From Glaucostegus cemiculus (Eukaryota): a DNA stretch of 64,000 bases. The stretch lies in contig CDPCPM010000037.1 in assembly GCA_976551045.1 (NCBI GenBank), positions 8,060,001 to 8,124,000 of the forward strand, written 5' to 3'. Both the position numbers and the translations under genes were made by a program. The notes below the pieces were generated by a model, which saw only the letters and a list, made by a program, of their open reading frames with translations, was not told the DNA's origin and made no database searches. Shown piece by piece: positions 1,053 to 53,458 of the stretch (its first letter is position 1; every line of letters starts with the position of its first letter).

Positions 1053-1228
1053 GGTAGTAAGCTGCTGGAGAACTCAGAGGGTCAGGTAGCAGCTATGGAG
1101 GCAAAGGGATAGTCGATGTTTTGGGTTGAGACCCTGCACCAGTCCTGATGTAGCATCTTGATCTGAAATGTGAATATCCTTATTCATTGCTCCAGATCTC
1201 AGCATCTGGAGTCCTTTGTGTCTCCATA
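1053..1228. mobile_element. Short palindromic Penelope-like element derivative with two degenerate hammerhead motifs
   Basis: gctgctggagaactcag...gaccctgcacc / agtcctgatg...gaaa...agcatctggagtcctttgtgtctc; 11-bp TSD TTCTCTACCAA at 1042-1052 and 1229-1239. Confidence 0.7.
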
Positions 1229-1975: not shown

Positions 1976-2081
1976 GATGAAAGTTCAAAAATACTTCATT
2001 GTCTGCAACGGCACTTTGGGTGATCTGAGACTGGGAAAGGTGCTAATATAAATATACATCTTGATAACATAATGGAGCAAG

Positions 2082-2489
2082 TGTCATGATTCTGAGTACT
2101 GGCCCTTGATTTGGCTCCTTGGATGCCTCATTGTACAGCACATGGATTCCATGCTGGACTGATTGCATAATGACACACACCTGAGCCCCATCAGGGGCCT
2201 AGCATAAGTACCTGGGTTTCTCTAGCACTAGTTGCCAGAGGATTGGTCAACCTTGAAGATTCAGTTTGGTTCCTAGCTGCTTAGTGTGGTCTACTCCAGA
2301 GCAGTCCTGTGTTTTCTATTCCTGCTTGAAGATTCAGCTTGTGTTGGGATTACTACTCAGATCTCTGAGGCAAGATTTCCTTCCAGTGTTGCCTGTGTCC
2401 GGTCCTGAGGAAGTATCCTGATTCCAGTCTTGTACCAGTGTGCTGCATTTGGGTCTCTCTGATCTTGTTCTTCAATCAACATTGTGACC
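2082..2489 (+). mobile_element. Solo LTR, copy 1 (408 bp), probably Gypsy
   Basis: Begins TGTCATGAT, ends ATTGTGACC; 5-bp TSD GCAAG (2077-2081 and 2490-2494); aligns along its length with 11210-11594 and the reverse complement of 53050-53458. Confidence 0.85.
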
Positions 2490-10244: not shown

Positions 10245-11745
10245 TAACAGCTTGTATTTATATAGTGTGTTTTAAAGAGTACAACATCTGAAGGCACTTC
10301 ACTGGAGCATAACCAGATTTAAACCTACCTGAAGCCAAAGGAGGAGAATTTGTGTTTTGCTCAGTTAATCTCAGTCGTGGAGATATGTTTTTAAAAGTAT
10401 CTTAAAGAAGCGGAGGTGGGAGATTAGGGAGGGAAGTTCAGAACTTAAAGCCTAACCGCTTGAAGGCATAGTCACTAATGGTGCTGAGCCCCAATGAGTG
10501 AAAGAAGTGAGGAGCATACAATTAGGTGGAATGGAAGAATGCAAAGTTCCTGGATTACTGCAGGACTGGAGGAAGTTACAGAGATGTTCAGAAGAGGCAA
10601 GGCTAAGGAGGGAATTAAACATGAGAACCTTTTAATTGAAGCATTGGCAGTGTAGAAACCAACATAGGTTAGCAAGTATGGGATTGATGATTGATTGGAA
10701 CTTGGCACAAATGGGGCTACGGGCAACAGGGTTTTGGATGAATTTTAGTTATGGAGGATGGAAGATGGAGGCTAGTCAGCAGAGAACTGGAATAATTCAA
10801 GCAGAGTTAGCCTAAGTATGAATGGGGGTTTCAGCAGCAGATGGGCTGAAGCAAAGGTGGAGACGATAGATATTTTGGAGCTAGCAGTATGCCACCCAAG
10901 TTTGGAGCAGATGGAAAATATTTTTGATTGTTAGGTCTTGACGATTGAAAAGACAAAGTTATGATGCACAGGGTCATGGGAACAGAGAAGTCAGGGAGAT
11001 GGTGTTGCAGGACTGGTAGAGGTAAGCAAAATAGACAAGTGAGTTAATGGTAGAACTTAAACTGGGGGATGAAAACTTTAAATTGTTGAAGGACGGGGAG
11101 CAGTTTTATGTTGGTAAGAATAAGGGAGATTGACACACACGCACACCATGAAATGGACAGGATATGGGCAGCAAGAAATTTTGCTTGAGTCTCTTTGATA
11201 GGGTGTTAGTGTCATGATTCTGAGTACTGGCCCTTGATTTGGCTCCTTGGATGCCTCGTTGTACAGCACATGGATTCCATGCTGGACTGATTGCATAATG
11301 ACACACACCTGAGCCTAGCATAAGTACCTGGGTTTCTGTTGCACTAGTTGCCAGAGTATTGGTCAACCTTTGGCTCTTTGCTGCTTAGAGTGGTCTACTC
11401 TAGAGCAGTCCTGCATTCTCTAGTCCTGCTTGAAGATTCAGTTTGTGTTGGGATTACTACTCAGATCTCCGAGGCAAGATTTCTTCCAGTTGCTGCCTGT
11501 GTTTGGTCCTGAACAAGTATCCTGACTCCAGTCTTGTACCAGTGTGCCACATTTGGGTTCTCTGTGAGCTTGCTCTTCAATCAACATTGTGACAGTTAGA
11601 ACTCTACCCTGAAAATGGCAAGGACGTAGATAAGTGTGGGTGGATGAGTGTGGAACAGAGATGGGTGATGTTATAAAAGTAGAAGTAGGCAGATTTAGAA
11701 TGGTGGATGTGGGTAAAGTTATCCTGAGAATGCAAAGTAGCCATT
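10245..11745 (-). mobile_element. Old L2 LINE fragment, interrupted by solo LTR copy 2
   Basis: Starts with an inverted L2-type tail (cttgtatttatatag...aaggcacttcac) followed by purine-rich antisense L2 ORF2 sequence. Confidence 0.5.
11210..11594 (+). mobile_element. Solo LTR, copy 2 (385 bp)
   Basis: TGTCATGAT...ATTGTGACA; perfect 5-bp TSD GTTAG (11205-11209 and 11595-11599). Confidence 0.9.
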
Positions 11746-14044: not shown

Positions 14045-16698
14045 TAGAAAGAAGGGACAAAGGGTCAGAAGAAGTGGATGGAGCTAAGAATGGCAAGGGT
14101 AAAAGGACAATAATAGCAGTTATATATAGGCCCCCTAACAGCAGCTGGGATATGTACTATAAGTTACAGTTAGAAATAGAAAAAGTGTGTCAGAGAGACA
14201 ATGTCAAGATAATTATGGGGGATTTTAATGTGAAGGTGGATTGCGAAAGCCAGGAAGGCAGTGGATCTCAGGAGAATGAGTTTGTGGAATGTCTACAGGA
14301 TGGCTTTTTGGAGCAACTTGTTGATGAGCCCACCAGGGCATCGGCTGTTTTGGATTGAGTGCTGTGTAATGAACCAAAGGTGATTAGGGAACTAAAGGTA
14401 AAAGAACCATTAGGAACTAGCGATCACAATATGATTGAGTTCAGTTTCAAATTTGAAAAGGAGAAGCTGATAGCAGGTGCATCAATATTTCAGTGGAACA
14501 AAGGAAATTACAGTGGCACATGAGAGGAGCTGGCCCAGATTGATTGGAAAAGTAGCTAGTTGGAGGGATGGCAGAGCAGAACTGGATGGAATTCCTACAA
14601 TAAATAAGGAAAATGCAGGATAGATATATTCTGAGAAAAAAGGTTATGATTGGAAAAATAGCACATATGTGGATAACAAGAGATGTTAAGGCTAAAATAA
14701 AAGCATAAGGGAAGGCATACAAGGAAGCAAAAATTAGTGGGAAAACAGAAGACTGGGAAGCTTTTAATAACTTACAGAAAGAAACTAAGAAGGTCATTAG
14801 GAAAGAAAAGATGAATTATGAAAGGAAATTGGCAGAAAACATTCAAAAGGAGTTTTTTCAAATATATGAAGAGTAAAAGAGAGACACAGGTTGATATAGG
14901 ACCAATTGAAAACGGTGTAAGAGAGATTATAATGGATAACAAAAGAGATAGCAGAGGAAGTAAATGAGTATTTTGGATCAGTCTTCACTGTGGAGGACAT
15001 CAGCAATATACTTGATAGTCAGGGGTCTCGGGATAGAACTGAGTTCAGTCAAGATTACTGGAGAGAAGGTGCTCAGGAAGCTAAATGAGCTAAAGACAGA
15101 TAAGTCTCCCGGACCAGATGAAGTGCACCCTCGGATTCTGAAGGAAGTGGCTTTAGAGATTGCGGAGGCGTTGGTGATCATTTTCCAGGTATCAATAGAC
15201 TCTGGCATGGTTCAGAAGGACTGAAGGGTCGCAAATGTAGTTCTGCTGTATAAGAAAGGTGGGAGGCAGCATAAAGGAAATCACAGACCTATTAGTCTGA
15301 CATTGGTGGTTGGAAAGTTATTGGACTCGATCCTCAAGGATGAGATTATGGAATACCTAGAGCTGCAAGGCAAGATAGGTCCAAGCCAGCATGGTTTCAT
15401 GAAGGGAAGATCCTGCCTGACCAACCTATTGGAGTTTTTTGAGGAAATCTCAGGTAGAGTGGATAAGGGAGAGGCTGTGGATGTTGTGTATTTAGACTTT
15501 CAAAAGGCCTTCGACAAGGTGCCACACAAGAGGCTGATTAATAAGATGAGAGCTCATGAAATTACAGGTAGGATATTAGAAAGGGTGGAGTATTGGCTGG
15601 TAGGCAGAAAACAAAGGGTAGGGATAAAGGGATCCTGTTCCGGTTGGCTACCAGTTACCAGTGGTGTTCTGCAGGGGACAGTATCGGGGCCGCTTCTTTT
15701 TACATTGTACATTAATGATTTGGATGATGGAATAAATGGTTTTGTGGCTAAGTTTGCAGATGACACCAAAATAGGAGTAGGAGTAGGGAGTATTGAAGAA
15801 ACAGGAAGGTTGTAGAGAGACTTAGATAGTTTAGGAGTATGGGCAAAGAAATGGCAGATGAGATTCAATATTGAGAAATGTGCAGTTGGATACTTTGGAA
15901 AAGGAAATAAATGGGCAGATTATTATCTAGATAGGGAGAAAATTCAAAGTACAGAAGTGCAAAGGGACTCAGGGGTCCTCGTGCAGGATACCCTGAAGGT
16001 TAACCAGCAGGTCAGATCAGTGGTAAAAAAAAACGAATGATATGTTGGCATTCATTTCAAGAAGTATAACGTATAAAAGTAAGGAAGTGTTGATGAGGCT
16101 CTGTGGGGCACTGGTGAGGCCTCATTTGGAATACTGTGTGCAGTTTTGGGCCCCTTATCTTAGGAAGGATGTGCTGATGTTGGAGAGGGTTCAGAAAAGA
16201 TTTACGAGGATGATTCCTGGAATGAGAGGGCTTACTTATGAACTTTTGTTGGCAATTGGACTGTACTCACTCGAGTACAGAAGAATGAGAGGGGACCTCA
16301 TAGAAACATTTAGAATGTTGAAAGGAATAGACAGAGTAGATGTGGCTAAACTGTTTCCCTTGTTGGGTGAGTCCAGGACTAGGAGGTACAGTCTTAGAAT
16401 TAGAGGGTACCGGTTTAAAACAGAAATGAGAAGAAATTTCTTTAGCCAGTGGGTTGTAGAGTTATGGAATTCTGTGCCACATACAGCTGTGGAGGCCTAA
16501 TCATTTGGAGTGTTTAAGGACGAGATTGATAGGTATCTAATTCATCAATGTATCAAGGGATATAGGGATAAGGCTAGATAGGAATTGTTTTCCTATCCTA
16601 AATTGGGGCTAGATAGGAATAGTTTTAGTTTAGCTCATGGAGCAGATTCGATGGGCCAAATGGCTTACTTTTGCTCCTTTGTCTTGTGATCTTGTGAT
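14045..16698 (+). mobile_element. 5'-truncated CR1 LINE (part of the APE endonuclease, RT and 3' UTR), inactivated by stops and frameshifts
   Basis: APE motifs VIYRPPNS, IIMGDFN, SDH; RT motifs KSPGPDEVHPRILKE, QHGFMKGRSCLTNLLEFFE, YLDFQKAFDKVPH, GVLQGTVSGPLLF, FADDTK; C-terminal VRPHLEYCVQFWAPY; tail (tcttgtga)n. Confidence 0.95.
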
Positions 16699-19871: not shown

Positions 19872-20150
19872 TAAAAACAGAAAACTCTAGAAGTACTCTT
19901 CAACCTGAAATGTAAACTCAAGAGACGCAAGAGACTGCAGATGCTGGAATCTGAAGCAACAAACAATCTGCTGGAGGAACTCGGCAGGTCGAGCAGCATC
20001 TGTGGGAGGAAAGAAGTTGCTAACATTTTGGGTCAAAACCCTGCATCAGGATTGTAAACTCTGTTTCTCTTGCCACAGGTGCTGCCTGACCTGCCGAGGA
20101 TTTCTAGCCTTTTCTACTTTTATTTTAGATTTCCAGCAACTGCTGTGTTT
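19872..20150. mobile_element. Nested Penelope-like derivatives: a younger copy (19920-20052) inside an older copy
   Basis: Younger copy gagacgcaagagactgcagatgctggaatc...ggtcaaaaccctgcatcagga is flanked by the 9-bp TSD TGTAAACTC (19911-19919, 20053-20061); removing it restores caacctgaaatgtaaactctgtttctc...gctgcctgacctg. Confidence 0.75.
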
Positions 20151-24745: not shown

Positions 24746-24823
24746 AACAAATAATCTGCTGGAGGAACTCAGTAGGTCATGAAGCATCTGTGGGAATTGT
24801 CGACATTTCAGGATCAAAACCTG
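24746..24823. mobile_element. Truncated Penelope-like derivative
   Basis: aatctgctggaggaactcagtaggtc...gtcgacatttcagg; 11-bp TSD TATTTTGCAGC (24735-24745, 24824-24834). Confidence 0.7.
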
Positions 24824-25074
24824 TATTTTGCAGCTTTTATTTCACTTTATGTGTATCAATTAAATCTAATTTCCTGCTTTACACTTCCTTGTTTGGACTC
24901 TGATGTCAGGGAAGATTCTTCAATTAGATTGGTTGAAGAGATTTGCTATTCTCGCTGCAGATGCCCTCAAGAGGACATCAAATGCCAGATATCAGCAAAT
25001 TTGTGCTCTCTCGCTTGCCAAAACCTTGTAGGCAGCTGTCAGCAAGGTAATTTATTTACTTAACTACCTATTTA

Positions 25075-25741: not shown

Positions 25742-25989
25742 TTTTTTTTTAAATTTTATTTACAGCATGGTAACAGGCCCTTTTGGACCAACGAGTCCGA
25801 GCCGCCCATTTTAAACCCCCAAATTAACCTACCCGTACGTCTTTTAGAGTGTGGGAGGAAACCGGAGCACCTGGAGGAAACCTACGCAGACACGGGAGAA
25901 CGTACAAACTCCTTACAGTCAGCGCTGGGAATCGAACCCCAATCGGTGGCACTGTAACAGTGTCACGCTAACCGCTATGCTATCGTGAC
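25742..25989 (-). mobile_element. tRNA-derived V-SINE, CR1-tail/poly(A) subfamily
   Basis: Reverse complement closely matches 39012-39264; poly(T) at 25742; V-domain ggaggaaaccggagcacc. Confidence 0.9.
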
Positions 25990-26004: not shown

Positions 26005-26195
26005 ATTAAAGCAGGAGATGCTGGAAACACTAAGCAGCATCTGTAGAAAAAGAAACTGTCAAGGCTGTCAAGGTTTCAGGTCTGGGACTCTTCATCAGAA
26101 CTGGGTAAGAGAGAGAACAAGCTAATCTTAGGTATTTTCATTTTACGCTTTCCCATTTTGTTTTAATTTCAGATTTCCAGAATCTGCAGTTTTTA
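26005..26195. mobile_element. Penelope-like derivative with hammerhead core on the minus strand (26065-26103)
   Basis: atgctggaaacactaagcagcatctgtag...; minus strand cagtt-CTGATGA-agagtcccagacct-GAAA-cctt-gacag; inverted end ttcagatttccagaatctgcag. Confidence 0.65.
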
Positions 26196-32556: not shown

Positions 32557-33416
32557 TTTTATTTTAAGATGGCGGCACACACATTTGCAGCGGCCTCTCC
32601 CAGGTCTGTAGTGCTTGTGTTTCTTTGTTAGTCTTTTAGTGTTTTTTTTTGCTTTTTTTTTGTGTGTTCTTTGTTCCTGATGTTTGTGTGCTTGGTGTTC
32701 GTTTTTGTGGAGTCGTTGTCTGTGCTGACGGCTCCGACGGCTCGTCGGAGTTCATCGAAGGCGACAGCGTATCAAAGGCCCTGGAGCCTCGTGGTGGCGT
32801 TGGGATGCGGGCGGTGAGGGGGCTGCTCGGGCCATAGGTGGTTGGCCTGCGGGGCTGGAGGTCGTCGGACTGCGGAGCCGGTCTGCGGGGCTGGAGGTCG
32901 TCGGACTGCGGAGCTGGAATTCGGGGCTGGAGGTCGTCGGACTGCGGGGCCGGAGGCGAAGGAGCCGGGGATCGTCGGCCTGCGGGGCCAGAGGTCGTCG
33001 GCCTGCGGAGCCGGAGGCAAAGGAGCCGGAGGTCGTCAGACTGCGGGGCCGGAGGCGAAGGAGCCGGAGGTGGTCGGACTGCGGGGCCGGAGGTGGTCGG
33101 ACTGCGGGGCCGGAGGTGGTCGGACTGCGGGGCCGGAGGCGAAGGAGCCGGAGGTGGTCGGACTGCGGGGCCGGAGGTGGTCGGACTGTGGGCCGGAGGT
33201 TGTTGATGGACTGTGGGCCCCGAGGTTGTAGGACTGCAGGGGTTGGAGGTAGTCGTCAGTGCGGGGTGAGGCTGGGGGCTGTTAATGTTTTGACGTTTTT
33301 GTCCCGTTGTCCTTTATTGTCTTTAATGTCTTTTGCACATTGGCCTGTGGAGAAACAATATCTCGCCTTCATGTATACGTGAAAGTGACAATAAATTAAT
33401 TCTGATTCTGATTCTG
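32557..33416 (+). mobile_element. Young 860-bp non-autonomous retroelement with 5' YY1 motif, internal GC-rich minisatellite and Rex/Babar-type tail
   Basis: AAGATGGCGGC at 32566-32576; ends gtgacaataaattaa(ttctga)3; 8-bp TSD AAGAATAT (32549-32556, 33417-33424). Confidence 0.75.
32845..33245 (+). repeat. GC-rich minisatellite: 23-bp unit gccggaggt(g/c)gtcggactgcggg interspersed with 15-bp gccggaggcgaagga
   Basis: Directly visible tandem units, most homogeneous at 33063-33200. Confidence 0.9.
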
Positions 33417-35211: not shown

Positions 35212-35512
35212 ACAAGACAAGACAAGATACCTTTATTAGTCACGTGTACTTTGAAACACAGTGAAATGCATCTTCCATGTAGAGTGTTCTGGGGACAGCC
35301 TGCAAGTGTCGCCACACTTCCGGCGCCAACATAGCATGCCCACAACTTCCTAACCTGTACATCTTTGGAATATGGAAGGAAACCAGAGCACCCGGAGGAA
35401 ACCCACTCAGACACAGGGAGAACGTGCAAACTCGTCACAGACAGCAGCCAGAATTGAACCTGGGTCACTGGCGCTGTAGTAGTGTTACGCTAACCACTAC
35501 ACTACACTACCC
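35212..35512 (-). mobile_element. tRNA-derived V-SINE, Rex-type tail subfamily
   Basis: Reverse complement of the 39328-39623 type; tail acaagacaagacaagatacctttattagtcac. Confidence 0.9.
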
Positions 35513-35521
35513 ATGCCTGCC

Positions 35522-36090
35522 CTTAGGAATAGTAAAGGGAAAAAAGCAACTGGTGAGAGTTGTCTATAGGCCACCAAATAATAATATTACAGTGGAACAG
35601 GCAATAAACCAAGAAATAGATGTAGCAGAGGATGCGGATAGTCTACAGAGAGATATGGAGTGGTTAAGTGAGTGGGCAGGGGTCTGGCAGATGGAGTACA
35701 ATGTTGGTAAATGGGAGGTCATCCACTTTGGAAGGAAAAATAGAAGCTCAGATTATTATTTAAATGGTGAAAGATTGCAGCATGCTGTTCTTGTGCAGAG
35801 GGACTCAGGAGTGCTTGTGCACGAATTACAAAAGGTTGGTTTGCTGCAACTGGACAGGGTACTGGTGAGGCTGCACCTGGAGTACTGCGTGCAGTGCTGG
35901 TCTCCCTGAGCAGATATATTGGTTTTGGAGGCGGTGCAGAGGAGGTTCACCAAGTTGATTCTGGAGCTGAGGGGGTTAGCCTATGAGGAGAAATTGAGTT
36001 GCCTGGGACTATACTCACTGGAATTCAGAAGAATAAGAGGGAAATCTACAGAACATATAAGATTATTAAAGAGATAGATAAGGGATAGAT
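35522..36090 (+). mobile_element. Internally deleted CR1 (APE segment fused to post-RT segment)
   Basis: VVYRPPNN...INQEI joined directly to DADSLQRDMEWLSEWAGVWQMEYNVGKWEVIHFG...VRLHLEYCVQCWSP. Confidence 0.8.
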
Positions 36091-39011: not shown

Positions 39012-39264
39012 GGGTGGCACGATAGCCTAGCGGTTAGCATGATGCTGTTACAGCGCCAGCGATCGGGGTTCGATTCTCGTCGCTGACTGTAAGGAGTTTG
39101 TACATTCTCCCATGTCTGCGTGGGTTTCCTCCGGGTGCTCTGGTTCCTCCCACATTCTAAAAGACATACGGGTAGGTTAGTTTGGGGGTTTAAAATGGGC
39201 GGCGCAGACTCATTGGGCCGAAAAGGCCTGTTACCACGCTGTAAATAAAACTTAAAAAAAAAAA
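39012..39264 (+). mobile_element. tRNA-derived V-SINE, CR1-tail/poly(A) subfamily
   Basis: Box A (tagcctagcgg), box B (ggttcgattc), V-domain tgcgtgggtttcctccgggtgctctggttcctcccaca, tail gggccgaaaaggcctgttaccacgctgtaaataaaac plus A11. Confidence 0.9.
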
Positions 39265-39327
39265 TTTGAATCCACAACCTCCAAGTTCCTAGATGGCATC
39301 TGATACCTGGAAAAATATCAATTAATA

Positions 39328-39623
39328 GCGGACACATTAGCATAGTGGTCACCGTAATGCTTTACAGCGCCAGTGACCCGAGTTCAATTCTGGCTGCTGT
39401 CTGTAAGGAATTTGTACGTTCTCCCAGTGTCTGCATGGGTTTCCTCCGGGTGCTCCAGTTTCCTCCCACATACCAAAGATGTATGTGTTAGGAAGTTGTG
39501 GGCATGCTATGTTGGCGCCAGAACCATAGCGACACTTACGGGCTGCCCCCAGAACACACTACACAAAAAATGCATTTCACTGTGTTCTTCGATGTACATG
39601 TGACTAATAAAGAGATCTCTTAT
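39328..39623 (+). mobile_element. tRNA-derived V-SINE, Rex-type tail subfamily
   Basis: Same head and V-domain, then ggaagttgtgggcatgc...catttcactgtg...gtacatgtgactaataaagagatctctta. Confidence 0.9.
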
Positions 39624-39712
39624 ACTGTGAAGATTTATCAGCTTAGAAAAGAATTTGTAGATTATTAAAAGAATATTTTCTGGATTCTGATTGACTAACA
39701 TTTTTGATTACA

Positions 39713-39834
39713 ACACACAAAATACTGGAGGAACTCAGCAGGTCAGGCAGCATCTGTGGAGGGAAATAAACAGTCAACATTTCAGGTCGAGACCCTTCAT
39801 CAGGACTGGAAAGGAAGAGGGCAGAAGCCAGAAT
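39713..39834 (-). mobile_element. Penelope-like element terminal fragment
   Basis: acacacaaaatactggaggaactcagcaggtcaggcagcatctgtggagggaaataaacagtcaacatttcaggtcgagacccttcatcaggactggaaagg. Confidence 0.75.
39771..39808 (-). ncRNA. Minimal type I hammerhead ribozyme motif
   Basis: Minus strand: CAGUC (stem I)-CUGAUGA-AGGGUCUCGACCU (stem II)-GAAA-UG-UU (predicted cleavage)-GACUG (stem I'); conserved core intact. Confidence 0.7.
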
Positions 39835-40093
39835 CTTCGATTACAAATTGGACATTAATGTTCAAATAACTCCCAAAAGAAATTTCAACAGATTTATATA
39901 TATCACAATAAATATGTATAAGCACAGTTAAAAATGTAACATTATTGTTACCGATTTTGGTCTTTTTGCATATTTGTAAGTTGTCTAGAAATTCCATTGC
40001 ATGACAAAGTGTTTTTAGGTGCTACCTGATGGTGAAATCTGGAAATCTGGAAATCAATGAGTAAAATCATCAACAACTGTGTGGACATTGTGG

Positions 40094-44988: not shown

Positions 44989-45294
44989 AAGATAGATAAG
45001 ATATTTATTAGTCACAGGTACATTGAAACACACAGTGAAATACATCTTTTTGTGTTACTGAGAATGTGCTGGGAGCAGCCTGCAAGTTTCGCCTCTCTTC
45101 CAGCGTCAACATGGCATTGCCCACATCTCCTAACCTGTATGTCTTTGGAATGTGGGAGGAAACCAAAGTACCCGGAGGAAACCCATGCAGACATGGGAAG
45201 AATGCACAAACTCCTTACAGAAAACAGCAGGAATTGTACCCAGGTCACTGGCACCGTAATAGTGTTACGCTAACCGCTACACTACCACACTGCC
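44989..45294 (-). mobile_element. tRNA-derived V-SINE, Rex-type tail subfamily
   Basis: agatagataagatatttattagtcac...tgtgggaggaaacc...cccggaggaaacccatgcagacatggg...acgctaaccgctacactacc. Confidence 0.9.
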
Positions 45295-47483: not shown

Positions 47484-47830
47484 CAAGAACATAAGAAACA
47501 GAGGCAAGAGGAAACACAAGAGACTGCAGATGCTTGAATCGAAGTGAAGCACAAAATGCTGGAGGAACTTAGTGGTTCAGGCAGCATCTATGGAGGGAAA
47601 TTGACAGCCGACGTTTCGGGTCAAGACCCTTCATCTAGACCCTGAAGGGTCTCAATCTGAAACTTCAATTGTCCATTTCCCTCCACAGATGCTGCCTGAC
47701 CCAATGAGAGGCAAGAGGATGCCTTTCAGTTCTTCATACCCACTGTGCCATTCAGTCAGATCATAGCTTGTCTTTCACCTCAACACAGCTCTCCTTCACT
47801 AACCCCAAAGTCCTGGATTCCATTATTTGC
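47484..47830 (-). mobile_element. CR1 3' tail interrupted by a Penelope-like hairpin element
   Basis: caagaacataagaaacagaggcaagagga [insert] tgcctttcag...gccattcagtcagatcatagct. Confidence 0.6.
47513..47706. mobile_element. Palindromic Penelope-like derivative
   Basis: Arms 47578-47633 and 47643-47700 are inverted; 13-bp TSD AGAGGCAAGAGGA (47500-47512, 47707-47719). Confidence 0.85.
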
Positions 47831-49989: not shown

Positions 49990-51690
49990 ACCCAATATAG
50001 AAAAGTATTAAATCCATGCAGACCATCAACTATTTACAAGTACAGGGTATCCCATTAGGACTGTTCCACATCCTTGTCCACTATGTCCATGGCAAATCAG
50101 ATTACACCTTTACTATTTGTTACTTTCCACAGCCTATGCAAGGTGCCCTACCTCATGAGAATTGTAGCACCAGTTAATCTTGAATGGACTTTGAGGTTGG
50201 GTGTTTTCATGGTAAGGGCCCCCTTCTTTTGCCCCAACATGACTTGCAGCCTTCACATTTTTGTGCACTCATATCACCTGTTAATTTGCTGCTGAACCCA
50301 CTTTTCTTTAATCAAAATAAACTTTATTCATAATAAAAGACAAACTATAATAAAACAGTGCAAACCTTTACATTTGTGTACAGATCAATCATTAATGTTA
50401 GTTTTTATAAAACCCTCAGCACTGATGCCACTTGCGTGGCTCCCTGGGGTCCCAATAGGGCAGTCCCATGTTTACAGTCTTTAAGGGGCTTCCTTGCCTG
50501 ACCCCACCCCTCCCTCTCCTGTGGCAGAAGAACCCTAAACTGTTGTCCTTCCCCACCGAGCCCTTGCGCTGGCTGCACCCAGCTTCAGTGAGTCCCTCAG
50601 TACGTAGTCCTGCAGCGTGGAATGCGCCAGTCGGCAGCATTCCCCTACGGACATCTCACAGTGCTGGGAGACCAACAAGCTTCGGGCAGACCAAAGAGCA
50701 CCTTTCACTGAGATGATGACCTTCCAGCAACAGTTGATGCCCATCTCTGTGTGTGTCCCCGGGAACAGCCCATAGGTCAGAGAATCCTCTGTTACACAGC
50801 TGCTGGGGATGAAACGTGACAAGGACCTTTGCATCTTTCGCCACACCCTCCTCGCAAACCCACAGCCAGCAAAGAGGTGGGAGACCATCTCGTCCCCACT
50901 GCAGTCCACCCAGGGACAGCACGTGCTGGGAGTGATGTTCCGACCATGCAGGAAGGATCTGACTGGGAGGGCCCCTCTCACTGCCAGCTAAGCAAGGTCT
51001 TGATGCTTGTTTCTGAGTTCTGGCGATGAGGCATTCTGCCAGATGGTCTGGACAGTCTGCTCAGGAAACCACCCTATAGTATCCATTGAGTCCTTCTGCT
51101 GCAGTGTCTGTAGGATGTTACGTGCTGACCACTGCCTGATGAACCCACTTTGCATCCATGTGACTCAGCTGTGGAGAAGGCAACCATGCCATCATTACCA
51201 TTTCTGTAAGCTATTTCCCAACTACCTCAGGTTTTCAAGTGTTACCTCCATACCAGTGAGCATTATGTCTGCCTTATCAAGTGGTTTCGCCTGAATTCTC
51301 TCATTTGCTAATCAACTTACAAGATGGTCTCACAGCACCCGAATAAAAAAAGGGCTGTGAACTTGCACCTCTTTGCTGATATCTTCAGCCTGCTCACATA
51401 TTTGTCAGTTATTTTGTCTGGTCCCTAACTGCGTGCAAACCCGTAGCTCTCAAGAACTCCAATGGTGCTGGATTAAAGTATCCTTTCAAGGTTTTCATCT
51501 TGGCCTCCTATGAGATCATGACTGTAATTCATGGTGCTGGTGGACTCACAAATACTTCATATGTCTCTGACAACAATATTGTCTTTCTTTTCTTCTGTTC
51601 TGTATCATTTGTATCATTTTCTAAGACTTCCACTGGGATACTGTTTACTAGATACACCCTCAGGAACATTCCCACTCACTTCAAATGGCA
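49990..51690 (-). mobile_element. Decayed Gypsy/Ty3 gag remnant (capsid region plus zinc knuckle), split by a Tx1 insertion
   Basis: Minus strand, with frameshifts: QKKRKTILLSETYEVFVSPPAP...MKTLKGYFNPAP...ESYGFARS*GPDKITDKYVSRLKISAKRCKF...L*DHLVS*LANERIQAKPL (about 51620-51260) and SPFKINWCYNSHEVGHLA*A (about 50195-50128). Confidence 0.7.
50305..51139 (-). mobile_element. Tx1-clade LINE 3' fragment (zinc-finger C-terminus plus 3' UTR)
   Basis: RGALPVRSFLH...CPWVDCSGDEMVSHLFAGCGFARRVW...ALWSARSLLV; tail tatgaataaagttattttg; 12-bp TSD TGAACCCACTTT (50293-50304, 51140-51151). Confidence 0.9.
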
Positions 51691-52162: not shown

Positions 52163-53049
52163 GGTAATGAAAAGGTGTAAAGTTAGGGGATGTGATTGGA
52201 AATGAAGCCACTGTGGACAATCCGTAAATGTAGTCAGCAATCATCGCTATTTCTTCTCCCCATAGGTATTGCAATACCATCCACCCAAACGAAAGAAGGA
52301 GAATACAGAGAGAATAAAATAACGATGAAGCAGATAAAAGGAGAAGTAGAAAGAAAGAAAAGATAAATGAATGATATAACCATTATTCACCGGCCTACCA
52401 CTTGCAATACCACAGATCCCCTTTTAGGGTTAGGAGTCTTTCTTTTAGCATATACCTTCTGCACATTACTCTGTTTCTGGAACATTTTCTCCATCACATA
52501 TTCTGGTCGTGCTTTATTTATGATTAATTAATTAACTAACAGCATTGATTAATTGGATAGCCTGAATAGTGATAGAAAGACTAGAGCTTGACAAGTTGGG
52601 ATGAGGAAGTGAATTGGAGTGAAGGGAAGAAACTTGAAATGGTGAGGTAAATGTAGGGTCTGTAGAGCAAAGCGTGACCATGGAGATCATTGAATCAGAG
52701 AGGAATAACTATGGGAGGGGGGGGAGGCGTTCAAACTCTCGGAGGGTGGGTGGGTTCATTCACAAGGGGAGTTCTAAAAGCACTAACCTGTTGACAACTC
52801 TCACCTCCATTTTATTACCAGGTTGCCAGGTCTCTTGAAAATCCTGGAAGCATTTGTTAAGTTCATCTCAGGTTCCCATTGTACTGTGGAAGCAGTCCAA
52901 TTTAAATATTACAATTCAGTGTCCCAGCCACTGCACACCCCATAATCTGCCTTGTAAGACATGTGGGTAGGTGGCCAGGGGTAGTTGGGTACATCTTGAG
53001 AAGAGTCAGGGCACGCACCAAGAACTGTGTATTCTTGGTGGGGCAAAAT

Positions 53050-53458
53050 TGTCACAATGTTGATTGAAGAGCAAGCTCACAGAGAATCCAAATGTGGCAC
53101 ACTGGTACAAGACTGAAGTCAGGATACTTCCTCAGGACCAAACACAGGCAGCAACTGGAAGGAAATCTTGCCTCAGAGATCTGAGTAGTAATCCCAACAC
53201 AAACTGAATCTTCAAGCAGGAAAAGAGAACACAGGACTGCTCTGGAGTAGACCGCTCTAAGCAGCTAGGAGCCAAAGTATACCTGAAGGTTGACCAATCC
53301 TCTGGCAACTAGTGCTACAGAAACCCAGGTACTTATGCTAGGCCCCTGATGGGGCTCAGGTGTGTGTCATTATGCAGTCAGTCCAGCATGGAATCCATGT
53401 GCTGTACAATGAGACATCTAAGGAACCAAATCAAGGGTCAGTACTCAGAATCATGACA
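53050..53458 (-). mobile_element. Solo LTR, copy 3 (409 bp, inverted)
   Basis: TGTCACAAT...ATCATGACA; TSD AAAAT/GAAAT with one mismatch. Confidence 0.88.

What the first reader, a model, noticed from the sequence alone, without database searches (positions are those of the whole stretch)
39771..39808. Intact-core minimal hammerhead ribozyme motif in a Penelope-like element end
Seen: the minus strand reads CAGUC-CUGAUGA-AGGGUCUCGACCU-GAAA-UG-UU-GACUG. This gives a perfect 5-bp stem I, the conserved CUGAUGA and GAAA core boxes, a short stem II (AGG/CCU), a vestigial stem III and an NUH triplet (GUU). Established: Penelope-like elements carry minimal type I hammerheads whose palindromic stem III is thought to work through dimers (Cervera and de la Pena 2014). 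Inference: the ancestral stem III was ACGU, as retained at 47611-47614, and AUGU here is CpG decay. This would be a self-cleaving RNA motif spread by an abundant chondrichthyan repeat, which could cut any host transcript reading through it.
Basis: partly seen in the sequence, partly recalled or inferred. Interest (0 to 1): 0.8.

Follow-up and report, generated by a model that had tools for sequence, protein, structure and literature searches.

The report
Decayed Penelope-element minimal hammerhead copy
This is a real but ordinary leftover: a worn copy of the small self-cutting RNA motif that Penelope-type jumping genes carry at their ends, one of many thousands scattered through this shark- or ray-like genome and probably no longer working.

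Summary
The motif is real: 39808-39771 (minus strand) is a type I minimal hammerhead, with no like match in 200 shuffles. It sits in a 124-nt, 5'-truncated end of a Penelope-like element (PLE). Fifteen of 20 loci picked by the family's reverse transcriptase carry this end downstream, and the protein has the PLE order RT, Zn-finger linker, GIY-YIG.

CpG decay is confirmed but wider than stated: C11.1, C15.2 and C17 are all U here. The family's stem II is GGGU/RCCC after an extra A, not AGG/CCU. Copies look neutrally decayed: catalytic G12 is A in 14 of 46, a loop CpG G in 13 of 46. This lone copy is probably inactive; cutting of host RNA is unsupported.

The class was described in 2014, and this scan reported it six times before on other genomes. 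One side lead: sister subfamilies with fixed core changes (A9C, U4A) reached thousands of copies.

The parts
39712..39835 (-). 5'-truncated 3' end (pseudo-LTR region) of a Neptune/Nematis-type Penelope-like element; solo copy that stops before the optional tail
   Evidence: 40 best genome matches 93-97% identical over this span, upstream flank unrelated; same end downstream of RT in 15 of 20 RT-picked loci; tail present in 16 of 30 other copies
39771..39808 (-). type I minimal hammerhead motif; predicted cut between 39776 and 39775
39804..39808 (-). stem I, 5' strand (pairs with 39771-39775)
   Evidence: the innermost pair is C-G in this subfamily and U-A in a sister subfamily
39797..39803 (-). 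core box C3-A9 (CUGAUGA), intact; extra unpaired A at 39796
   Evidence: the extra base is a listed feature of PLE minimal hammerheads (PMC4209133)
39784..39795 (-). stem II, 4 pairs with CUCG loop; closing pair is G-U here because C11.1 (39784) decayed to U
39776..39783 (-). G12-A13-A14, stem III remnant AUGU (39780-39777; family ACGU, C>U at 39779) and U17 (39776; family C)
39771..39775 (-). stem I, 3' strand
39839..39846 (-). candidate target-site duplication, upstream copy (8 nt; 12 of 14 if extended)
   Evidence: a shared word this long in 20 of 5000 random pairs; 12 of 14 read
39706..39713 (-). candidate target-site duplication, downstream copy
47550..47708 (.). inverted pair of the same PLE end; minus copy keeps ACGU (47611-47614) but lacks C3-U4, plus copy is cut inside the core
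19958..20111 (.). inverted pair of sister PLE ends; the minus copy has the A9C core variant
26018..26104 (-). older sister-subfamily copy: core boxes intact, stems I and III damaged
1062..1171 (-). further decayed sister PLE end(s)
24746..24825 (-). truncated sister PLE end without the first core box

Best explanation
The motif is the minimal hammerhead of a PLE pseudo-LTR, left behind by a heavily 5'-truncated retrotransposition event. SHOWN: the hammerhead layout, the PLE link, the high copy number and CpG decay at three sites in this copy. INFERRED FROM KNOWN FAMILIES: in the once-active element the motif had a palindromic ACGU in place of stem III, and two motifs in a tandem transcript, or one helped by the element's protein, could fold an active core and cut after C17 to process element RNA. 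INFERRED: after insertion the copies decayed without selection, and this one (G-U at 10.1-11.1, AUGU, GUU, no near partner) has little or no activity in the cell.
For: Descriptor and shuffles. Abundance: 5022 genome matches to a core-intact pattern, 117 exact CpG-intact copies, 16 exact copies of the window's form, 10353 exact matches of the downstream 30-mer; reversed controls all 0. Link to the ORF: same-strand end about 0.7-1.1 kb past the RT block in 15 of 20 loci, with continuous DNA likeness in 11 of 20. Protein: RT, CX4CxxC linker and GIY-YIG with CCHH in relatives. PLE hallmarks: optional tail in 16 of 30 copies; back-to-back inverted pairs are the commonest close neighbours, 22 of 48. 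Neutral decay: G12>A in 14 of 46 against loop CpG G>A in 13 of 46; only 2 of 46 keep core, G-C pair, ACGU and C17 together; none of the 33 ends in 200 kb from arbitrary positions matches the intact-core descriptor.
Against: Pfam scores of the genome's own frames are below cut-off (RVT_1 E 0.0026-0.011 in 3 of 4 frames; GIY-YIG E 0.051 in 1 of 4; none in 4 shorter frames), so the domain call leans on homologs and motifs. Non-CpG core positions change less than the 3' flank (24 of 458 against 92 of 727, Fisher p 2e-5). I read this as conservation between subfamily founders plus selection of rows by a profile, but it is not a clean test. The window copy keeps every core-box base, GUU is listed as a cleavable triplet (PMC3138052, passages), and a sister subfamily has U at both 11.1 and 17, so residual activity is possible. 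No cleavage assay was run.
Confidence: 0.88

Rival explanations
1. This copy is an active or domesticated ribozyme that cuts a host transcript running along the minus strand, alone or by pairing with one of the many other copies.
For: Both core boxes and a 5-bp stem I are intact; partner sequences are abundant; GUU can be cut (PMC3138052, passages).
Against: Three CpG changes hit the stem II closing pair, stem III and position 17, and the AUGU duplex is unfavourable. The copy is no better kept than its relatives: 5 differences from the majority in 94 columns, 3 of them in the motif. No host gene was found (0 of 150 short frames hit Pfam, out of 505 candidates). Published monomers are inactive (PMC4209133).
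Confidence: 0.05
2. The motif spreads as a non-autonomous, SINE- or retrozyme-like unit with its own cycle rather than as truncated PLE ends.
For: Many copies are very short and begin near or inside the motif; animal retrozymes are proposed to derive from PLE pseudo-LTRs (bioRxiv 10.64898/2026.07.22.740005).
Against: 5' ends form a continuous ladder from 0 to over 600 nt upstream among 20 copies and reach the ORF in others. The window holds no tandem array of the motif. The retrozymes of that paper are tandem repeats.
Confidence: 0.06
3. The hammerhead-like sequence is a coincidence or serves only as a DNA or protein-binding signal, and never cleaved even in the founder elements.
For: Sister subfamilies with A9C or U4A reached thousands of copies. 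Hammerhead mutants did not reduce insertion in vitro for the anole element (PMC11167929). No Rfam hammerhead hit.
Against: The layout matches all four extra features listed for PLE minimal hammerheads (PMC4209133). There are compensatory pairs between subfamilies at 2.1-1.1 and 10.1-11.1, and N7 varies. Coincidence is excluded by the shuffles.
Confidence: 0.12

Closest known systems
Minimal hammerheads (min-HHR) in pseudo-LTRs of metazoan Penelope-like elements (Cervera and de la Pena 2014, PMC4209133)
   Same: Type I layout, 4-5 bp stem I, extra base between 9 and 10.1, G10.1-C11.1 and palindromic 15.2-16.2 in the family, mostly solo copies from truncated elements, pairs on opposite strands.
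   Different: Stem II is only 4 bp (6-8 bp in the schistosome and fly examples). Numbers are larger: at least 5022 core-intact matches to one pattern, against about 4000 and 9000 in total for coelacanth and Xenopus. Cartilaginous fishes are not named in the sections I read; supplements not seen. The window copy has lost three family features.
Neptune/Nematis clades of endonuclease-bearing PLEs (features as in PMC8557442)
   Same: C-terminal GIY-YIG with CCHH, CX2-5CxxC linker, DKG motif in intact relatives, 5' truncation, inverted upstream copies, optional tail.
   Different: No intact ORF or tandem direct pseudo-LTR pair was found among the copies examined. Neptune versus Nematis was not resolved (Neptune is my recalled guess). 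An 8-nt duplication-like word flanks this copy.
Anole Poseidon element PAc hammerhead (PMC11167929)
   Same: Pseudo-LTR hammerhead lying shortly before the tail region.
   Different: PAc belongs to the Poseidon clade, which lacks the linker finger. Its ribozyme was assayed (protein-assisted, dispensable for insertion in vitro); this one was not.
Non-LTR retrozymes (bioRxiv 10.64898/2026.07.22.740005)
   Same: Type I hammerhead, PLE connection, reported in one chondrichthyan genome.
   Different: Those are tandem repeats with a ribozyme in each unit; this is a dispersed solo end.

Membership tests
PLE minimal hammerhead | core boxes CUGANGA and GAAA, U16.1 and H17, type I layout | tested here: met
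PLE minimal hammerhead | extra base between A9 and 10.1 | tested here: met
   A at 39796; this register pairs in 96.5% of cells against 78.4% without it
PLE minimal hammerhead | G10.1-C11.1 pair (family level) | tested here: met
   G in 43 and C in 28 of 46 copies, the rest C>T at a CpG; the window copy itself has G-U
PLE minimal hammerhead | palindromic 15.1-16.1 (family level) | tested here: met
   CG 19, TG 14, CA 8 of 46; 117 exact ACGU copies; the window copy itself has AUGU
PLE minimal hammerhead | covariation in stems I and II | tested here: inconclusive
   score 0.249, 0 of 500 shuffles, but rows are related, 74 of 115 were picked by patterns, and the signal rests on about two subfamily-level changes
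PLE minimal hammerhead | self-cleavage as a dimer or with protein | not testable with these tools
   needs an in vitro assay
Rfam hammerhead families | covariance-model hit | tested here: not met
   no hammerhead hit at E<=10; not filed under an Rfam family
Penelope-like element (EN+) | end joined to a single RT plus C-terminal GIY-YIG frame | tested here: met
   15 of 20 RT-picked loci; motifs and homologs; Pfam scores of own frames below cut-off
Penelope-like element (EN+) | 5' truncation, inverted upstream copy, optional tail | tested here: met
Penelope-like element (EN+) | tandem direct pseudo-LTRs around a full ORF | tested here: inconclusive
   none clearly seen in 20 RT-picked and 15 motif-picked loci; only 150 of 19102 RT candidates were scored
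Neptune/Nematis clades | CX2-5CxxC linker before the endonuclease | tested here: met
   full CX4CxxC or CX3CxxC in 6 of 8 aligned proteins; the genome's own two frames each lack one cysteine
Neptune clade | RT phylogeny with reference Neptune elements | not tested
   no named reference sequences at hand
Non-LTR retrozyme | tandem repeat units each with a hammerhead | tested here: not met
   solo copy; no tandem array of the motif in the window

The most novel reading that the evidence does not exclude
PLE subfamilies in this genome fixed changes at normally conserved core positions (A9C, U4A) and still made thousands of copies each. Either these are working natural core variants (for A9C the next A may serve as A9 with the C looped out), or ribozyme cleavage is dispensable for PLE spread in vivo. 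Matched natural subfamilies would make that open question directly testable. Basis: 3547 A9C matches against 435 for G plus T at that place; 3537 matches with non-U at position 4, A in 84 of the first 100 listed; PLE ORF remnants upstream of 5 of 30 A9C and 4 of 14 U4A copies. Luense et al. 2017 on PLE hammerhead variants could not be read and may already cover these.
Probability: 0.3. Interest if true: 0.5.

Novelty: new member of a known kind. Interest (0 to 1): 0.2.

Why it matters
As a single site it matters little: it is one worn copy of a ribozyme class described in 2014, and this scan has met it before in other shark and ray genomes. The family is a useful resource. Rough scaling of 33 ends in 200 kb gives some hundreds of thousands of PLE ends in this genome, in several subfamilies with different hammerhead cores. 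These could test whether PLE hammerheads must cleave for the element to move, which is still open. If the host-cutting idea were true it would mean widespread cryptic RNA cleavage, but nothing here supports it.

Tried and rejected
Rfam: no hammerhead family at E<=10.

For this copy alone it is only 0.8 kcal/mol worse.

Host gene: none identified. Long frames were repeat-derived or unassigned by eye, and 0 of the 150 best-ranked of 505 short unmasked frames hit Pfam. A large intron is not excluded.

Intact or young element: the longest open frame among the RT matches listed was 774 aa, against about 890 aa in intact relatives. None of 15 loci around CpG-intact motifs held a long frame (longest 372 aa). 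Only 150 of 19102 candidates were scored.

Core-versus-flank rate test: confounded by mixed subfamilies. The G12 versus loop-CpG comparison was used instead.

Literature: a search for hammerhead ribozyme + Penelope + shark gave one review with no relevant use of 'shark'. A search for A9C/U4A gave nothing relevant. Penelope + cartilaginous fish gave 8 listings, none read. Luense et al. 2017 was not held, and the 2014 supplements were not searchable; either may already list chondrichthyan or variant-core examples. No passage giving rates for GUU versus GUC or for G10.1-U11.1 was found; that these changes slow cleavage is recalled.

Full report
OBSERVATION. A type I descriptor finds it as the only site in the window with stem I of at least 5 and stem II of at least 3 pairs. 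Such a hit arose in 2 of 200 shuffles with a loose stem III loop and in 0 of 200 with a short one. Folding energy is not unusual (z -0.91) and Rfam gives no hammerhead hit, so the case rests on the core boxes and on the family.

WHAT IT SITS IN. The motif lies in a 124-nt repeat, 39712-39835. Its 40 best genome matches are 93-97% identical. Nineteen of the 20 fetched continue upstream into shared sequence that the window copy lacks, so this copy is 5'-truncated about 27 nt before stem I. An 8-nt word flanks both ends, as a target-site duplication would; a shared word this long arose in 20 of 5000 random pairs. The genome holds 5022 matches to one core-intact pattern, 117 exact CpG-intact motifs, 16 exact copies of the window's form and 10353 exact copies of a downstream 30-mer; reversed controls are 0. 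A profile finds 33 related ends in 200 kb taken at arbitrary positions and 8 in the window, which scales roughly to several hundred thousand.

LINK TO A PENELOPE ORF. One of the 20 close copies (L019) runs upstream into RT and GIY-YIG-like frames. I searched with that RT and fetched 20 loci: the 16 best matches after the query itself and 4 with long open frames. Fifteen of 20 have this end on the same strand about 0.7-1.1 kb past the RT block, 11 of 20 with continuous DNA likeness; in four of the 15 the motif is partly deleted, missing or split; the other five lack it. Pfam scores for these decayed frames are below cut-off. A 525-aa natural frame retrieves 79 homologs. The six best are from cartilaginous fishes at 56-62% identity, and longer relatives carry RVT_1, four of them with GIY-YIG annotated. 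[quoted passage not shown] PMC8557442 (passages read) assigns that linker to the Neptune and Nematis clades. An optional tail follows the end in 16 of 30 copies, and back-to-back inverted pairs are the commonest close neighbours, 22 of 48; both are PLE hallmarks in that paper. No intact ORF or clear tandem direct pair was seen in the loci examined, but only 150 of 19102 RT candidates were scored.

STRUCTURE AND DECAY. Of 186 distinct ends in the first 90 loci and the window, 95 span the motif and 67 cluster with the window copy. I dropped 21 of these 67 (the window copy and the 20 picked by likeness to it), leaving 46. Their majority has an extra A after A9, G10.1-C11.1, ACGU and C17, the features listed for PLE minimal hammerheads in PMC4209133 (parts 1-2 of 4 read; supplements not searchable). 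The window copy differs inside the motif at three places, all CpG C>T: 39784 (C11.1), 39779 (C15.2) and 39776 (C17). The stem III self-duplex goes from -1.7 to +2.6 kcal/mol. Catalytic G12 is A in 14 of 46 copies, the same as a loop CpG G (13 of 46). Seventeen of 46 keep the core, 7 also the G-C pair, 3 also ACGU and 2 also C17. None of the 33 ends from arbitrary positions matches the intact-core descriptor. Against neutrality, non-CpG core sites change less than the 3' flank (5.2% against 12.7%); the set mixes subfamilies, so I read this as constraint on founders, not on copies.

COVARIATION. On 115 aligned copies the family register pairs 96.5% of stem II cells against 78.4% for AGG/CCU. The innermost stem I pair is C-G 44, U-A 20, U-G 12, other 38; pair 10.1-11.1 is G-U 47, G-C 33, A-U 32, other 2. 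The score beats all 500 shuffles, but rows are related and 74 were picked by patterns that fix part of stem II. The real signal is about two compensatory changes between subfamilies; the one in stem I was not fixed on its 5' side by any pattern.

MECHANISM. Shown: a hammerhead layout at a PLE end, copied in bulk and decayed. From the literature: such motifs are inactive as monomers and weak as dimers (PMC4209133; review PMC6765202, passages). The anole PLE hammerhead cuts only with the element's protein, its mutants still insert in vitro, and no RNA-seq ends were found at the site (PMC11167929, parts 1-2 of 4). Inferred: founder elements used the motif to process tandem transcripts, and this solo copy is a fossil. 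Its nearest same-strand relatives are 7.8 kb and 13.6 kb away and damaged. That G-U at 10.1-11.1 and GUU slow cleavage is recalled, not from a call; GUU is listed as cleavable (PMC3138052, passages), so a trace of activity is not excluded. No host gene was identified.

SIDE RESULT. Sister subfamilies carry fixed core changes. A9C has 3547 matches against 435 for G and T together. Non-U at position 4 has 3537 matches, A in 84 of the first 100 listed by my count. A third group with A10.1-U11.1 and U17 has 332 matches to a stricter pattern. PLE ORF remnants lie upstream on the same strand in 5 of 30, 4 of 14 and 1 of 30 copies respectively. One search found no paper on these changes, but Luense et al. 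2017, which deals with PLE hammerhead variants, was seen only as a reference line.

COMPARISON AND VERDICT. The motif works like, and at family level is, a PLE minimal hammerhead. It is not a tandem retrozyme (bioRxiv 10.64898/2026.07.22.740005, parts 1-2 of 5 and passages) and matches no Rfam family. Six earlier notes of this scan reached the same reading on other shark and ray genomes; they are unchecked and not counted as support. No note covers this place or sequence. Also consulted as passages only: PMC6155905, PMC544870, PMC2837043. Verdict: new member of a known kind, interest 0.2.

Noticed in passing
genome-wide; window 19968-20054 (-); loci L091-L140: PLE subfamilies with fixed hammerhead core changes A9C (3547 pattern matches) and U4A (about 84% of 3537).
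   Followed up: partly
L171-L177 (G000:C172, 0.65-1.42 Mb): Seven fetched CpG-intact copies sit in a large duplicated unit; four are over 99% identical across 4.6 kb. No Rfam or tRNA hit in the four tested. These are duplications of one insertion, not new jumps.
   Followed up: partly
window 39018-39586, also 25742-25987, 35255-35505, 45061-45287, 2737-2934: Several copies of a SINE-like repeat with a tRNA-like head just beside the motif; the likeness to shark HE1-type SINEs is recalled, not tested.
   Followed up: no
window 32790-33246: GC-rich tandem repeat with 23- and 15-nt spacing.
   Followed up: no
window 15225-16500 (+) and 35283-35909 (+): Decayed LINE-type reverse transcriptase frames, judged by eye as CR1-like.
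   Followed up: no
window 50535-50987 (-): 150-aa frame resembling the zinc-knuckle end of a Tx1/L1-type LINE, by eye.
   Followed up: no
window 2080-2454, 11208-11597, 53047-53458: Three copies of a younger repeat, 87-99% alike.
   Followed up: no
protein hits P0002, P0006, P0042, P0075: Database isoforms of host genes in rays and skates that match this PLE's ORF; probably annotation artefacts or exonised repeat.
   Followed up: no
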